Virus record (IMG/VR): IMGVR_UViG_3300025131_008220
Span: 19,920 to 83,919 of that record
Source: a virus
Strand: one strand, 5' to 3'
DNA: 64,000 nucleotides
Positions within the stretch are counted from its first letter, which is position 1. Every line of letters begins with the position of its first letter. Below, piece by piece: positions 18,379-29,213 of the stretch. The position numbers and the translations under genes were made by a program. The notes below the pieces were generated by a model. The model had not been told where the DNA came from, ran no database searches, and saw only the letters and a program-made list of their open reading frames with translations.

Positions 18379-18933
18379 TTAATGTATTTTTCTTTTTAAA
18401 ATTTCAGCACCTTTTCTATGCAGGTTTATGGCTGTCTGAGAACTGAAGCCTAAGAGATTTCCTATTTTGGCCCAAGTCATCTTGCCTCCCGAGAAGTATC
18501 TAAGAGAGTAGACTTTTTCAACTCTAGGGTCTTTCATTTTTCCTAGCTCGTTAAATATAAAAGACTTCATCTCTTTATTTGAGTAAGGATTTCCTTGCTC
18601 AGTTATTATGGTGTTCTGCCTGACTTTTTCGCTTAGTCTATTTATTTTAGCGGACTTACTTATTAAATGTAGGCATTTATACTTAACATTATTACTAAGC
18701 CAAGTACAAAAACTAGATCCTTTTTCTAAATTAAAACTTTTCGCCGACTCGTAAATAATTAAATCCTTATCTAATAGAATATCATTAGGGTCGGCCCCAG
18801 ATTTAGCCATAGACGACGAGTACTTAGAATACATAGACAAAAAGACAGGAGAATACCTAGATATCACCTTAAGTAGAGACAGGTCACAATCTTTTTCTTG
18901 TATCTTCTTTATTTCCAGATAGAAGTTATTCAT
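18379..18933 (-). CDS. Phage sigma-70-family sigma factor (regions 2 and 4 only)
   Basis: SFNLEKGSSFCTWL resembles region 2.3-2.4; LRYF..MTWAKIGNLLGFSSQTAINLHRKG is a region 4 HTH. Confidence 0.75.
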   Translation of the reverse strand: MNNFYLEIKKIQEKDCDLSLLKVISRYSPVFLSMYSKYSSSMAKSGADPNDILLDKDLIIYESAKSFNLEKGSSFCTWLSNNVKYKCLHLISKSAKINRLSEKVRQNTIITEQGNPYSNKEMKSFIFNELGKMKDPRVEKVYSLRYFSGGKMTWAKIGNLLGFSSQTAINLHRKGAEILKRKIH

Positions 18934-18949
18934 TTTTTTTTAAAATTAA

Positions 18950-19298
18950 TAAAAGAGGATTCCGCAAGCGGAATCGACGTAGCTTTTTTGCTGAGCACAG
19001 TTCACCCAACTTACAAAACACTTAAAACGACTACGAAAGGACGCTTTCGCTTCCACTTTAGTTCTATTCGCAGGGACTTTCTCCTTTTCGGCCCGCACAT
19101 ACGAGCCTAGCTAATGACTTTCGCAACCTATACCAAGTGTGATTAAAAATGGTAGAACTTTTTTAAATGATCACTTCCCTCATACGCCGCCTGCACCCGC
19201 TTGTAGCGTACCTTCCAAGGTTCGAGAAGCCCCTTCGGGGTTGTTGGTCTCTCAAGAGTTACCAGACTCGCTTTCGCTTAGAACCATTCTTCACACTT
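18950..19298 (-). ncRNA. Candidate structured RNA / long 5' leader of the sigma-factor gene
   Basis: Own consensus promoter; long-range helix 19298-19283 with 19153-19135; many GC-rich hairpins with GAAA loops; terminal GATTCCG-CTTG-CGGAATC hairpin followed by a pyrimidine/U run. Confidence 0.7.
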
Positions 19299-19303
19299 TC
19301 TCT

Positions 19304-19332
19304 ATTATAAATTTTACTTGACTTTCTGTCAA
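19304..19332 (-). promoter_or_regulatory. Consensus sigma-70-type promoter for the structured RNA / sigma gene
   Basis: TTGACA (19332-19327)-17 nt-TATAAT (19309-19304). Confidence 0.85.
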
Positions 19333-19346
19333 GTTTTTTTTAAAAT
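19318..19346 (+). promoter_or_regulatory. Sigma-70-type promoter, leaderless, overlapping the divergent promoter
   Basis: TTGACT-17 nt-TAAAAT; 6 nt to ATG 19353. Confidence 0.75.
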
Positions 19347-19352
19347 TTAAAA

Positions 19353-19805
19353 ATGGACAGACTCAGCTGGGTAGACTATGGCATAGAACTAGCAAAAACA
19401 GCGGCCCTAAGAAGCGAAGACCCATTCATTCAGGTTGGCTGCTGCCTTTTTAGGCCAGATAATAGCATCGCATCTCTAGGCTACAATGGGGCACCTCCCG
19501 GAGTTGACATAGACTGGTCAGATAGAGACGAAAGAAGGAAAAGAGTTATTCATGCTGAAACAAACGCCCTAAAGAATATAAAACCCCAAGAAGCAGACAG
19601 AATGTTTGTAACCTTAATGCCCTGTGGGGACTGCATTAAAAACGTAGCTTCTTATGGAATAAAGCAAATATTTTATATTAAAACATACGACCTTGATAAA
19701 ACAGCTATAGACCTAGCATCAGAATTTGGAATAAATTTAACACAACACAATAATGATCTCCGTATATATCAAAAAATTAGAAGAGTCGGCAGTGACGCCG
19801 ACTAG
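19353..19805 (+). CDS. dCMP deaminase
   Basis: RSEDP..QVGC, GYNG, HAE and PCGDC zinc motifs. Confidence 0.9.
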   Translation: MDRLSWVDYGIELAKTAALRSEDPFIQVGCCLFRPDNSIASLGYNGAPPGVDIDWSDRDERRKRVIHAETNALKNIKPQEADRMFVTLMPCGDCIKNVASYGIKQIFYIKTYDLDKTAIDLASEFGINLTQHNNDLRIYQKIRRVGSDAD

Positions 19806-27625: not shown

Positions 27626-28336
27626 ATGTCTATAGATCAAAAAACGTTTCAAAGAAACGAAGCAGGGCTTTTAGTTAAACCCCCAATTGACTACGTATTC
27701 AACGAAGACGGCTCCGTTGATTGGAGAAAAATGGTCAGGACAAGCTTTTTAGTAGCCAATAAACAAAGGACAAACCAAACCGATGTATCTCAACTGGAAG
27801 ACAAAGACCTACTTATTCTGCTGGGAGGCATTAAAGAGCTGGCTCAAATTAGAGGTTTTACCCAAGTGAGCTACAACGTGGTAGCCGCAAGCCAAGAGTA
27901 TTTTGCGACTAGCTGCACTATTGAATGGTTACCCAACTACGAAACTAATAACCTCTCTTCGACGTTCTCTGCTTTAGCAGACGCACACCAAGATAATACG
28001 TATAGCTTTGCCTGCAACTTCCTAGCAGCAACGGCGGAAAACAGAGCTTTTGTTCGGTGTGTAAGGAACTTTCTCAGGATTAACGTCGTTGGCCAAGAAG
28101 AGATGGGAGGAGGCCAGAAACAATCAACCTTCACTCAAAAATCTTCTGCCGCAAAGACAGACTCCAATCCCGCCACCCTATTAGAAAAAGTTATGGACAC
28201 AAAGGGGGTATCTTTTGATATGGTCAAATCTCGTTTGCTGGAAGAAGGCTTTAAGAAAGCAGAGTCGTATGATTCAATTAAAGACATACCTAAGACTAAA
28301 ACTTTTGAACTCATAGCTAGACTAAAAAAGATTTAA
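27626..28336 (+). CDS. Rad52/Sak-like single-strand annealing protein (putative)
   Basis: GIKELAQ, three-strand core, AATAENRAFVRCVRNFLRI...EEM helix resembling phage Sak AETRAxxRAL...EEM. Confidence 0.5.
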   Translation: MSIDQKTFQRNEAGLLVKPPIDYVFNEDGSVDWRKMVRTSFLVANKQRTNQTDVSQLEDKDLLILLGGIKELAQIRGFTQVSYNVVAASQEYFATSCTIEWLPNYETNNLSSTFSALADAHQDNTYSFACNFLAATAENRAFVRCVRNFLRINVVGQEEMGGGQKQSTFTQKSSAAKTDSNPATLLEKVMDTKGVSFDMVKSRLLEEGFKKAESYDSIKDIPKTKTFELIARLKKI

Positions 28337-28386
28337 AAAAGACTTGACAAGTGAATAAGTTTTTGTTAGAATAAGTAAAGCAAGAC
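28326..28386 (+). repeat. 61-bp dispersed repeat, copy 2 (promoter TTGACA-17-TAGAAT at 28344-28372)
   Basis: 58/61 identical to the reverse complement of 15179..15239. Confidence 0.9.
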
Positions 28387-28585
28387 GAATTTCCTCTCTC
28401 GACGGAGAGAGGTCGGTGTGACGGAACAATCCCTCCCAAAGGGGTAACGTAGCGACTGCGAGAAGTACAGAGACCAATCGGTTGAGAAAAATCGCGGGTG
28501 AGTCCGAAGTAAGTAGATCTGAAACATTTGTTTTCTGGGTACTGAAAAGGTGCGGGTACACAAATACTCCCGCCACCATTTATTT
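28378..28585 (+). ncRNA. Candidate structured RNA / leader
   Basis: Follows promoter; CCTCTCTC-GACG-GAGAGAGG hairpin (28393-28412), further short stems, terminal GGTGCGGG...CCCGCCACC stem then A/T run; GC-richer than flanks. Confidence 0.55.
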
Positions 28586-28589
28586 TAAT

Positions 28590-28853
28590 ATGGATTATGA
28601 AGAGCTGTGCAAAGCATTTAGAGAAGAAGAGAAGATGAAGACAAAACATTTACAAAAGAAGGCCGCGAAGAAAAAGGTCACGCGAAAGGTAAAGCATGAT
28701 AAGATTGTCATGCGGGATCATGTTCGGCGTCAACTGATGAGGGACGTCGAGTATCAAATCAAACACCTTCGGCAAAGAAACGCAGCCGATTGCGATGTTG
28801 TTGCATTCATCAACAAGAAGTACGCGCAGATACGACAAATAATGTCAGAGTAA
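28590..28853 (+). CDS. Small highly basic hypothetical protein
   Basis: ATG 28590 (alternatively the downstream MKTKHL start); K/R-rich; uses CGN Arg codons that look rare in flanking genes. Confidence 0.55.
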   Translation: MDYEELCKAFREEEKMKTKHLQKKAAKKKVTRKVKHDKIVMRDHVRRQLMRDVEYQIKHLRQRNAADCDVVAFINKKYAQIRQIMSE

Positions 28854-29213
28854 CTACCACTTACCAATAGGGCAAGACTCCTCAGCTAAATAAACCTTCA
28901 GTGGAACAACACAACCGCACTCAGCGCATCTTTGGTTTTCTTTAATAAACCAAGCGCACCCGTGGCATATAGCGGTCCTTTTCTCTATTAGGGACATTTC
29001 CGCTTTTATCTTCTTTCCGGCCACTAAAGCCTTTGCAGTTTTAGAGAGACTCTTAGCTAAGTTAGCCGCCATCTCCTTCTTGCTGGGGAGCTTCTTTTTG
29101 TCCAGCTTTATAAAATCTTTTTTTAAAGAACCCCTTTTTCTTCCAGAACTATTCGTTTGAGTAGACCCAATTGGTTCGATATAAGACCCTCCTGAAAAAT
29201 TTTTTAAACTCAT
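28854..29213 (-). CDS. Cys-rich small phage protein (DUF6171-like)
   Basis: ICHGC...CAECGC...K....ESCPIGKW. Confidence 0.65.
   Translation of the reverse strand: MSLKNFSGGSYIEPIGSTQTNSSGRKRGSLKKDFIKLDKKKLPSKKEMAANLAKSLSKTAKALVAGKKIKAEMSLIEKRTAICHGCAWFIKENQRCAECGCVVPLKVYLAEESCPIGKW

What the first reader, a model, noticed from the sequence alone, without database searches (positions are those of the whole stretch)
28378..28853. Second structured RNA (~200 nt) coupled to a small basic protein
Seen: after the duplicated promoter comes a GC-richer non-coding stretch with an 8-bp CCTCTCTC/GAGAGAGG hairpin, CGGTT/AATCG, CGGG/TCCG and GAAACA/TGTTTT stems, and a closing GGTGCGGG/CCCGCCACC stem before ATTTATTTT. 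An 87-aa K/R-rich ORF with atypical CGN codons follows. Like the 19-kb RNA it contains GGTAAC...AGAGACCAA flanking a variable insert. Inference: an RNA-plus-protein module (RNP, autoregulatory leader or type III toxin-antitoxin-like), possibly acquired as a unit and structurally related to the first RNA.
Basis: partly seen in the sequence, partly recalled or inferred. Interest (0 to 1): 0.7.

Follow-up and report, generated by a model that had tools for sequence, protein, structure and literature searches.

The report
Compact manA-type phage RNA with partner gene
The flagged stretch is a real folded RNA, a slimmed-down relative of the known but still unexplained "manA" phage RNA. It ends in a built-in stop signal and is almost always followed by the same tiny, positively charged protein gene, so it gives a handle for testing what manA RNAs do.

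Summary
Window 28393-28577 (+) is a conserved, multi-helix RNA with its own sigma-70-like promoter (28344-28372), followed 12 nt later by a conserved 87-aa basic ORF (28590-28853).

It is not a new class. Rfam's manA model (RF01745) aligns end to end at 42.1 bits, E 2e-9 to 6e-11, but below the gathering score of 55.2, so routine annotation misses it.

Seventy-four distinct relatives from viral and metagenome contigs support five helices by compensatory changes.

It differs from canonical manA in three ways:
- The central junction carries one hairpin, not three.
- An invariant 8-nt insert (GAAAAGGU) lets the last hairpin extend into a terminator-like stem plus U-tract. That stem competes with the manA pseudoknot for the same CACC.
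- A small basic protein of no known family follows in 75 of 77 loci, across at least 12 downstream and 6 upstream contexts.

Best reading, inferred: an attenuator-type leader whose fold gates read-through into the partner gene. A stand-alone RNA and an RNA-protein complex remain live rivals.

Not supported: type III toxin-antitoxin, translation from TTG 28482, and homology to the 19-kb RNA.

This scan has already logged many manA-like RNAs on other DNA.

The parts
28344..28372 (+). Sigma-70-like promoter, TTGACA-17-TAGAAT with TG extension. The predicted start lies about 28379-28381.
   Evidence: 11 of 12 consensus matches. A comparable promoter 18-22 nt before P1 is present in 13 of 90 related loci.
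28393..28412 (+). P1 hairpin, CCUCUCUC-GACG-GAGAGAGG. The GACG loop matches the manA consensus loop.
   Evidence: Three of 8 pairs change on both sides. The loop is invariant in 63 distinct rows.
28415..28418 (+). 5' strand of the manA pseudoknot (GGUG). It is followed by the conserved junction UGACGGAACAA (28419-28429).
   Evidence: alignment (model brackets). Invariant in 63 distinct rows, although GGUG was outside the scan pattern.
28421..28450 (+). P2: outer AC/GU pairs, inner CUCC/GGGG hairpin, then the conserved UAACGU.
   Evidence: The pairs never vary, so homology supports them but covariation does not.
28453..28500 (+). P3, a 9-bp junction helix (28453-61 with 28492-500). It encloses one hairpin, P3a (28473-75 with 28480-82). 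Canonical manA has three hairpins here.
   Evidence: Pair 66-109 is CG:70 and UA:4. P3a pair 83-92 is AU:38 and GC:36, with 0 broken of 74.
28501..28511 (+). Invariant single-stranded AGUCCGAAGUA. AAGUA recurs at 28462-28466.
   Evidence: This block was part of the metagenome scan pattern, so its invariance there holds by construction. It is also invariant in the 11 rows.
28512..28543 (+). P4 helix, AGUA/UACU (28512-15 with 28540-43). It encloses hairpin P4a, GAAAC-AUUU-GUUUU (28521-34).
   Evidence: Two of the 4 P4 pairs change on both sides (AU:45/GC:16 and AU:44/CG:9/UA:9).
28544..28552 (+). Variant-specific insert GAAAAGGU plus G. The local GGUG (28549-52) can pair with CACC 28574-77, and the A-tract can pair with the U-tract.
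   Evidence: the canonical consensus has one U here. Invariant in 63 distinct rows. The alternative stem folds at -12.6 kcal/mol, z -2.8.
28552..28573 (+). P5, the last manA hairpin: GCGGG, a 12-nt loop UACACAAAUACU, CCCGC.
   Evidence: Two pairs change on both sides. The loop core ACAAAUA is invariant.
28574..28589 (+). CACC (3' pseudoknot strand and lower terminator stem), then A and the U-rich tract UUUAUUUU.
   Evidence: Sixty-one of 63 distinct rows have at least 7 T in the 9 nt after CACCA.
28590..28853 (+). 87-aa basic protein gene. The invariant N-terminal motif is KTKH..KA.K...TR..K. The predicted fold is a helical hairpin.

Best explanation
The stretch encodes a compact, divergent member of the manA class of phage RNAs, joined to a dedicated small basic-protein gene.

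Shown:
- The RNA has the manA core: the P1 hairpin with GACG loop, the GUGAC.GAA.AA junction, P2 with UAA.GU, the junction helix, a helix-plus-hairpin arm, the last hairpin, and a possible 4-bp pseudoknot.
- It is under very strong purifying selection.
- It is followed in nearly all relatives by the same ORF.

Inferred mechanism:
- A variant-specific insert (GAAAAGGU) lets the last hairpin grow into an 8-bp stem that abuts a U-tract, which is an intrinsic-terminator shape. This stem uses the same CACC that the manA pseudoknot needs.
- The two folds therefore exclude each other.
- With the native manA fold (pseudoknot formed), transcription runs on and the U-rich start region of the ORF is free.
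- With the local hairpin, transcription stops about 200 nt in, or the start region is occluded.
- So the RNA acts as an attenuator-type leader, and its folding state sets how much of the partner protein is made. What sets that state is unknown: a ligand, the protein itself, or self-assembly.

My odds: manA-class identity about 0.9. This gating mechanism about 0.4.
For: Identity:
- RF01745 aligns over model positions 1-192 at 42.1 bits, with E 2.3e-9 and 5.7e-11 on the record that holds the window.
- The same holds in 9 related loci, at 26-47.6 bits.
- In reverse, my model R1 hits the canonical S-CREM1 manA at its exact place, weakly (12.8 bits, E 0.059).
- Eleven viral loci chosen gave manA scores from 124.9 down to 41.5 bits in 10 of them, so the family grades continuously into this score range.

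Structure:
- 96.8% of 2829 cells are paired, against 41-51% when partners are slid.
- Nine pairs change on both sides, in 157 cells. No shuffle of 500 reaches the covariation score (11-row version).

Terminator platform:
- The insert, both GGUG sites and CACC are invariant in 63 distinct rows, although none was in the scan pattern.
- The U-tract is kept in 61 of 63 rows.
- The hairpin folds at -12.6 kcal/mol, z -2.8.
- The canonical consensus and S-CREM1 lack both the insert and the U-tract.
- The U-tract stays fixed to the RNA in the 10 of 75 loci where 147-173 nt are inserted before the ORF. It therefore belongs to the RNA, not to the ORF's start site.

Coupling:
- The ORF family follows in 75 of 77 loci, and in 65 of them it starts 11-17 nt after CACC.
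- The flanks fall into 12 and 6 clusters.

Weak: contigs from four RNA libraries of four studies carry the RNA of relatives, and one contig bridges into the ORF.
Against: - The score is below Rfam's gathering cut-off in 10 of 10 variant loci tested.
- The pseudoknot and the competing stem are invariant, so neither has covariation support and the switch is pure inference.
- No ligand, 3' end or read-through was measured. The RNA-library data are assembled contigs, which can show neither ends nor transcription.
- Whole-RNA folding energy is ordinary, z -0.64.
- RNAalifold prefers other pairings in the P2/P3 region, and these are not excluded.
- Other manA-class RNAs lie inside tRNA arrays (L006, L178, L197) or carry their own promoter and terminator with no ORF between (L222, L233, L207). 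That speaks for free-standing RNAs.
- A 2026 preprint reports that manA RNAs self-assemble in vitro.
- The alignment was fitted to my own model, and the sequences are related.
Confidence: 0.45

Rival explanations
1. This is a free-standing structural RNA gene. Promoter, manA-class RNA and its own terminator make a stable RNA of about 200 nt that acts on its own, possibly by self-assembly as reported for canonical manA. The ORF is only fed by leaky read-through.
For: - manA-class RNAs lie in tRNA arrays.
- Others have promoter plus terminator and no ORF (L222, L233, L207).
- The preprint reports pentamer-based decamers and a 60-mer held by kissing loops L5-L7' and L8-L9' (passages read).
- By my own mapping of loop numbers, the consensus loops ACUGU and ACAGU are complementary. 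In the variant the homologous loops read AUUU and AAAU, so complementarity is kept through two double changes.
- Single-stranded parts are invariant while the protein drifts to 35% identity.
Against: - It does not explain why the ORF stays attached in 75 of 77 loci across changing flanks.
- The variant lacks two of the three junction hairpins, including by my mapping the GUGGUG loop of the L5-L7' contact.
- Self-assembly is known only in vitro, and only for other members.
- My loop mapping was made without seeing the figures.
Confidence: 0.25
2. This is an RNA-protein pair. The basic protein binds the RNA by its invariant Lys/Arg-rich N-terminal helix. It either represses or activates its own synthesis (autoregulatory leader, or a lambda N/nut-like antiterminator loop), or it forms a stable RNP.
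For: - The pairing is near-obligate.
- The invariant protein residues cluster in the basic motif K17 T18 H20 K24 A25 K27 T31 R32 K35.
- The predicted fold is a long helical hairpin, pLDDT 86.
- The family is confined to 18 representative clusters among 1.84 billion, that is, to the lineage carrying this RNA.
- AAGUA recurs twice in conserved single strands.
- The analogy with lambda N and nutL upstream of N is recalled knowledge.
Against: - No binding test is possible with these tools.
- The protein matches no RNA-binding family by sequence or fold.
- The RNA is nearly invariant while most of the protein diverges.
- Inserts of 147-173 nt are tolerated between the two.
Confidence: 0.2
3. The two structured RNAs of the window (28.4 kb and 19 kb) are diverged relatives.
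For: - The composite word GGTAAC-N(3-30)-AGAGACCAA occurs only at these two places, with 0 of 100 shuffles.
- By eye, the 19-kb RNA also begins with GUGUGA, as does the manA junction.
- Both RNAs end in a hairpin plus a U/A-rich tract directly before an ATG.
Against: - There is no manA hit at 18800-19450 at E<=10.
- R1 finds only trivial U-runs there with filters off.
- AGAGACCAA is kept in 11 of 63 relatives and lies in the variable hairpin.
- blastn of the 19-kb RNA against all loci hit only L112, at 89% identity.
- The word was chosen after the fact.
Confidence: 0.08
4. This is a type III toxin-antitoxin-like pair.
For: Only the layout: a structured RNA directly before a small ORF, with a terminator between.
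Against: - The RNA has no tandem repeats. The only repeat is 2 x 8 nt inside the ORF.
- The protein is an 87-aa helical hairpin with no PADLOC or Pfam hit.
Confidence: 0.02
5. The stretch is coding: the 123-aa frame from TTG 28482.
For: The frame is open in the window. One gene caller produced a 123-aa product (P0077).
Against: - Conservation is nucleotide-level, with paired compensatory changes.
- By my reading, 16 of 63 distinct relatives have GGTAAAC, which puts an in-frame TAA there.
- Homologues start at the ATG after the U-tract in 65 of 75 loci.
Confidence: 0.01

Closest known systems
manA RNA motif (Rfam RF01745; Weinberg et al. 2010, PMC2864571, passages read)
   Same: - The model aligns full length with a significant E-value.
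- It shares the P1 hairpin with GACG loop, the junction GUGAC.GAA.AA, P2 followed by UAA.GU, the junction helix, a helix-plus-hairpin arm, the last hairpin with a UA..A..A.U loop, and the pseudoknot partners.
- It occurs in phages and is placed before a gene, often just after a sigma-70-like promoter.
   Different: - It scores 42 bits, below the gathering score of 55.2.
- The junction holds one hairpin instead of three.
- An 8-nt insert plus U-tract creates a terminator-like alternative.
- It has a fixed partner ORF of a novel family.
- The phage lineage has almost no PHROG matches and is not a T4-like cyanophage.
Cage-forming manA RNAs (bioRxiv 10.64898/2026.07.01.735769; abstract, sections 7-8 and passages read, figures not held)
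   Same: The core fold is presumably the same. Complementarity between the two 3'-domain loops is retained, by my inference.
   Different: The peripheral hairpins used for one of the reported kissing contacts are absent. No assembly data exist for this variant.
Transcriptional riboswitches in which a pseudoknot competes with a terminator stem (for example preQ1-I and fluoride classes; recalled, not searched)
   Same: A shared 3' strand can join either a long-range pseudoknot or a local stem that abuts a U-tract.
   Different: No ligand is known. The aptamer is about 190 nt. The competition is inferred from sequence only.
Lambda N / nut antitermination (recalled)
   Same: A small basic protein with an N-terminal Lys/Arg-rich helix is encoded just downstream of a structured RNA and a terminator.
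   Different: There is no sequence or fold similarity to N. The RNA is a large multi-helix fold, not a boxB hairpin. Nothing was tested.

Membership tests
manA RNA motif (RF01745) | Score at or above Rfam's gathering cut-off (55.2 bits) | tested here: not met
   The window scores 42.1 bits. None of 10 variant loci reaches the cut-off: 26 bits for a 5'-cut copy, and 38.1-47.6 bits for the others.
manA RNA motif (RF01745) | Statistically significant, end-to-end match to the covariance model | tested here: met
   Model positions 1-192 align, with E 2.3e-9 and 5.7e-11. The 14 control genomes gave no hit.
manA RNA motif (RF01745) | Conserved core: P1 with GAcg loop, GUGaCUGAAUAA junction, P2 plus UAAgGU, last hairpin | tested here: met
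   GACG, GUGACGGAACAA, UAACGU and GCGGG..CCCGC are all present. P1 and the last hairpin covary.
manA RNA motif (RF01745) | Multi-stem junction with three internal hairpins (consensus structure line) | tested here: not met
   Only one covarying hairpin lies inside the junction helix (compared).
manA RNA motif (RF01745) | Pseudoknot between the strand after P1 and the strand after the last hairpin | tested here: inconclusive
   GGUG and CACC can form 4 pairs, but both never vary in 63 distinct rows. The 2010 paper itself marks this pseudoknot with a question mark.
manA RNA motif (RF01745) | Lies in a potential 5' UTR or in phage RNA-gene regions | tested here: met
   The promoter is 20 nt upstream and the ORF 12 nt downstream.
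Riboswitch (general) | Conserved aptamer plus an expression platform with mutually exclusive pairings | tested here: inconclusive
   The alternative stem shares CACC with the pseudoknot. There is no covariation, because all the sites are invariant.
Riboswitch (general) | Specific small-molecule ligand | not testable with these tools
   No ligand is reported for manA in the papers seen.
Type III toxin-antitoxin | RNA antitoxin made of tandem repeats | tested here: not met
   There is no repeat in 28378-28589. The only repeat is 2 x 8 nt at 28620-28635.
Type III toxin-antitoxin | ToxN/AbiQ/CptN-type endoribonuclease toxin | tested here: not met
   No PADLOC, Pfam or NCBIfam family matches. The model is a two-helix hairpin.
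Ribosomal-protein-type autoregulatory leader | The downstream gene is a ribosomal or known RNA-binding protein | tested here: not met
   Pfam gives nothing below E 0.004. No PDB sequence match is below E 0.5. No fold match is at E<=0.001.

The most novel reading that the evidence does not exclude
The compact manA-type RNA and its invariant-motif basic protein are a dedicated ribonucleoprotein pair. The protein reads the RNA's fold and sets read-through of the built-in terminator, or coats an assembled RNA. If so, this would be the first manA-class RNA with an identified partner and a measurable output.
Probability: 0.2. Interest if true: 0.75.

Novelty: new variant of a known kind. Interest (0 to 1): 0.5.

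Why it matters
No function has been shown for manA since its description in 2010. It is listed as a riboswitch candidate with no ligand, and a 2026 preprint now reports that it builds RNA-only cages in vitro.

This subfamily offers three handles:
- A classical-looking terminator that competes with the family's pseudoknot. That gives a simple read-out, termination against read-through, for whatever stabilises the fold.
- A fixed partner protein to test for binding.
- A natural minimal version that shows which peripheral hairpins can be lost.

It also shows that Rfam's cut-off hides whole manA subfamilies. In one search, 4 of the 10 loci with a match scored 41.5-47.3 bits.

The added value is tempered because the class is known and this scan has already met many manA-like RNAs.

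Tried and rejected
- Rfam at gathering threshold gave 0 hits in the window. Only the E-value mode showed manA.
- blastn of the RNA and of S-CREM1 manA against isolate phages found nothing useful. The RNA gave 13 short chance hits at E 2-8, and S-CREM1 manA gave only a self hit.
- tblastn of the 87-aa and 236-aa proteins found no match.
- The protein stayed unexplained after every test: Pfam, PHROGs, PADLOC and NCBIfam, a PDB profile search with best E 0.56, Foldseek against the PDB with no match at E<=0.001, and the ESM Atlas with no usable hit. My early idea that it resembles ribosomal protein S20 (recalled) found no support.
- The looser viral pattern gave 44 stretches, 12 of them already known. 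Of the 32 new ones only 2 (L041 and L048, identical) were real. L021, L026, L033 and L046 are chance matches in coding DNA.
- The pattern was too strict and gave 1 stretch.
- I hoped to decide between pseudoknot and terminator by covariation in a wider set. All three sites are invariant, so the test has no power.
- A first regex for the upstream hairpin failed and was redone.
- In one search the laid RNA-library contigs leave 28100-28371 and most of 28916-29100 uncovered, and two contigs stop near the RNA's 3' end. As assembled contigs, these are no evidence for transcript ends.
- The small word shares of the runs are no evidence of habitat.
- Supplements were not opened: the additional files of PMC2864571 and Table S7 and Figure S4 of PMC9964418. 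They may list manA gene contexts or terminators that bear on my claim that the terminator platform is variant-specific.
- My literature searches for manA were only.
Full report
WHAT IS THERE

The window is part of an 83.9-kb viral record. Its G+C is 39.4%, and most of its genes lack a Shine-Dalgarno sequence.

A sigma-70-like promoter with a TG extension lies at 28344-28372. About 20 nt downstream a stretch of 48.7% G+C begins. It runs to a U-rich tract at 28579-28586. The ATG of an 87-aa ORF follows at 28590.

IDENTITY

At Rfam's gathering thresholds the window has no hit. In E-value mode the manA model RF01745 aligns over all 192 positions to 28395-28583 (+), at 42.1 bits against a gathering score of 55.2, with E 2.3e-9. 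A search of the whole record that holds the window gives E 5.7e-11, a single copy, and no hit in 14 control genomes.

The aligned core includes:
- the P1 hairpin with the consensus GACG loop;
- GUGACGGAACAA (consensus GUGaCUGAAUAA);
- P2 followed by UAACGU (consensus UAAgGU);
- the last hairpin, and the two pseudoknot strands.

Weinberg et al. 2010 described manA as a riboswitch candidate of marine sequences, cyanophages and two gamma-proteobacteria (PMC2864571, passages read). A cyanophage paper annotates one in S-CREM1 (PMC9964418, passages). A 2026 preprint reports pentamer-based decamers and a 60-mer cage, held by kissing loops, for several manA RNAs in vitro (abstract, sections 7-8 and passages).

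RELATIVES AND STRUCTURE

The ORF led to 4 viral loci that carry the same RNA, at 39.4-42.7 bits. A DNA pattern taken from the RNA found 12 viral stretches. A looser pattern added 2 true ones among 32 new stretches.

A covariance model built from 11 sequences (R1) matched all 92 sources given, yielding 74 distinct rows.

On that alignment, which was fitted to my model:
- 96.8% of 2829 cells pair, against 41-51% for slid partners;
- 9 of 40 pairs change on both sides, in 157 cells;
- 0 of 500 shuffles reach the covariation score.

The unfitted 11-row MAFFT alignment gives the same picture: 96.9% paired and 9 pairs with double changes.

Helices with compensatory changes are P1, the 9-bp junction helix P3, its inner hairpin P3a (AU:38, GC:36, none broken), P4, and the last hairpin P5. 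P2, P4a and the pseudoknot never vary or vary on one side only.

RNAalifold proposes other pairings around P2 and P3. I cannot exclude them, but homology to manA and the strict 66-109 covariation favour mine.

Folding energy alone is unremarkable, with z -0.64.

HOW IT DIFFERS FROM CANONICAL manA

The S-CREM1 copy scores 96.6 bits. Its structure line shows three hairpins inside the junction, including the GUGGUG loop and a GNRA-type loop. The variant has one hairpin there.

Between P4 and P5 the consensus has a single U. The variant has GAAAAGGU, which is invariant in 63 distinct full-length rows although it was not in the scan pattern.

This insert makes GGUG 28549-52 available to pair with CACC 28574-77, the strand that the pseudoknot also needs. 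It also sets an A-tract against the U-tract. The resulting 8-bp stem folds at -12.6 kcal/mol (z -2.8) and abuts UUUAUUUU.

Sixty-one of 63 rows keep at least 7 T in the 9 nt after CACCA. S-CREM1 has neither the insert nor a U-tract and runs straight into a tRNA gene.

THE PARTNER GENE

The protein has 134 close homologues (at least 76% identity) in a word-indexed search, none named informatively. A profile of 19 diverse members found only 18 representative clusters in 1.84 billion proteins.

No library, PDB sequence search, fold search or atlas search names it.

AlphaFold predicts a long helix (residues 3-63) and a short helix (68-86), with mean pLDDT 86.

The invariant residues sit in a basic N-terminal motif. 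The N-terminal 15 residues are optional: some relatives start at the conserved MKTKH.

An HMM of the family finds the ORF downstream of the RNA in 75 of 77 loci that have at least 150 nt downstream. L057 is disrupted, and L060 is cut after an inserted small ORF.
- In 65 loci the ORF starts 11-17 nt after CACC.
- In 10 loci it starts 147-173 nt later, behind a 65-aa Cys-rich ORF (3 loci) or a non-coding insert (7 loci).

Flanking DNA falls into 12 downstream clusters (60 loci) and 6 upstream clusters (61 loci).

The ORF's Arg codons are 6 of 9 CGN, against 13.6% elsewhere in the window. The pair therefore behaves as a unit that moves or persists independently of its neighbours.

MECHANISM

What is shown: a manA-class fold, a terminator-shaped alternative that shares one strand with the pseudoknot, a U-tract that stays with the RNA whatever follows it, and a fixed partner ORF.

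What is inferred: the two folds compete and gate transcription into the ORF. In most loci they would also gate access to the U-rich start region.

I put this at about 0.4.

Against it:
- The decisive sites never vary.
- No ends were measured.
- Other manA-class RNAs look like free-standing genes. Among 11 loci taken from a broad viral scan, 10 had manA matches from 124.9 down to 41.5 bits.
- Those matches lie in tRNA arrays (L178, L197, as S-CREM1), directly before assorted ORFs (L246, L196, L169), or between their own promoter and a terminator with no ORF (L222, L233, L207).

A free-standing, perhaps self-assembling RNA (0.25) and an RNA-protein pair (0.2) are therefore serious rivals, and they are not mutually exclusive with gating.

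One observation favours a conserved loop-loop contact. The consensus loops of the P4 arm and of the last hairpin read aCUgu and acAgu, which are complementary. The variant has AUUU and AAAU at the aligned places. Mapping these to the preprint's L8-L9' contact is my inference, made without its figures.

EXPRESSION

Contigs assembled from four RNA libraries of four studies hold the RNA of relatives. One contig of 294 nt spans 28388-28654. Assembled contigs can show neither ends nor transcription, and DNA may be present in such libraries, so this is weak.

THE 19-KB RNA

The word pair GGTAAC..AGAGACCAA is indeed found only at the two RNAs. Against kinship:
- manA does not match 18800-19450 at E<=10.
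- R1 finds nothing real there with filters off.
- AGAGACCAA is kept in 11 of 63 relatives.
- The 19-kb RNA has a blastn match in only one locus, L112, at 89% identity.

I leave the shared words unexplained.

EARLIER NOTES OF THIS SCAN

Follow-ups on the 19-kb RNA call it a new large RNA with no family. This agrees with my negative tests.

Many other windows yielded manA-like RNAs, mostly enlarged ones beside tRNA genes: 363 notes hold the search words. I checked the tRNA-array context myself on L006, L178 and L197. A follow-up on this same stretch exists and was withheld.

VERDICT

This is a real feature that belongs to a known class, as a new compact variant with a terminator platform and a fixed partner gene. 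The function is unproven.

Noticed in passing
L003:2500-2800, L005, L013:10700-11004 and 40-odd other loci (not in the window): In 46 of 90 relatives a conserved 6-bp hairpin with loop GUGGYG lies about 15 nt before the manA-type RNA. Twelve of its 13 sequence variants keep 6 of 6 pairs through compensatory changes. It closes a non-coding module of 82-221 nt bounded by GAGUUG...CAACUC. Further pseudoknot-like modules and a promoter lie upstream. No Rfam hit at E<=1 on L003:2300-2810.
   Followed up: partly
L058:1989-2161 (-), L065, L077, L080, L102, L118, L123: Seven loci carry a non-coding insert of about 150 nt between the RNA's U-tract and the ORF. There are two sequence types that share a closing stem and internal blocks (GAGAA, CGUGGCUC.GUC, UAGUG). 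No Rfam hit at E<=0.1.
   Followed up: partly
L005:2846-3043, L052, L078: Three loci insert a 65-aa Cys-rich (CxxC...CxxC) small ORF between the RNA and the basic-protein gene.
   Followed up: no
L196, L221, L233, L169, L197, L207 (viral contigs): There are several further manA subtypes with different junction contents, scoring 63.5 down to 41.5 bits. Four of these six are below Rfam's cut-off. L207 shares the GGCC-AAGU-GGC hairpin with this variant.
   Followed up: partly
L178:1705-2735: A viral contig has a canonical manA (100.2 bits) wedged between two tRNA genes, about 500 nt after a cyanobacterial-type tmRNA (116.6 bits), in a long tRNA array.
   Followed up: no
window 19244-19263 (-) and 28443-28477 (+): GGTAAC-N-AGAGACCAA occurs only at the two structured RNAs (0 of 100 shuffles). 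By eye, the 19-kb RNA also starts with GUGUGA, like the manA junction. No model-based similarity was found, so this stays unexplained.
   Followed up: partly
window 18958-18975 (-) with 18933, and 28552-28589 (+) with 28590: Both RNA loci share one layout: a strong promoter, a structured RNA, a hairpin plus a U/A-rich tract, then the ATG of the next gene within about 25 nt. The next gene is sigma-like in one case and the basic protein in the other.
   Followed up: no
L003:3674-3748, L013:9440-9513, L065:7166-7239, L123:5568-5641: A tRNA-Cys(GCA) gene lies within 0.4-1.5 kb of the module in 4 of 8 loci scanned.
   Followed up: no
window 28462-28466 and 28507-28511: AAGUA occurs twice in conserved single-stranded junctions of the RNA. 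It is a candidate paired binding site.
   Followed up: no
window 28854-29213 (-): The convergent 119-aa gene ends one base after the basic ORF. Its C-terminal half matches DUF6171 (E 2.4e-7) and phrog_13558 (E 5e-18).
   Followed up: no
window, 45 ORF starts: Only 13 of 45 ORFs have even a weak Shine-Dalgarno-like word upstream. A/U-rich leaders dominate.
   Followed up: no
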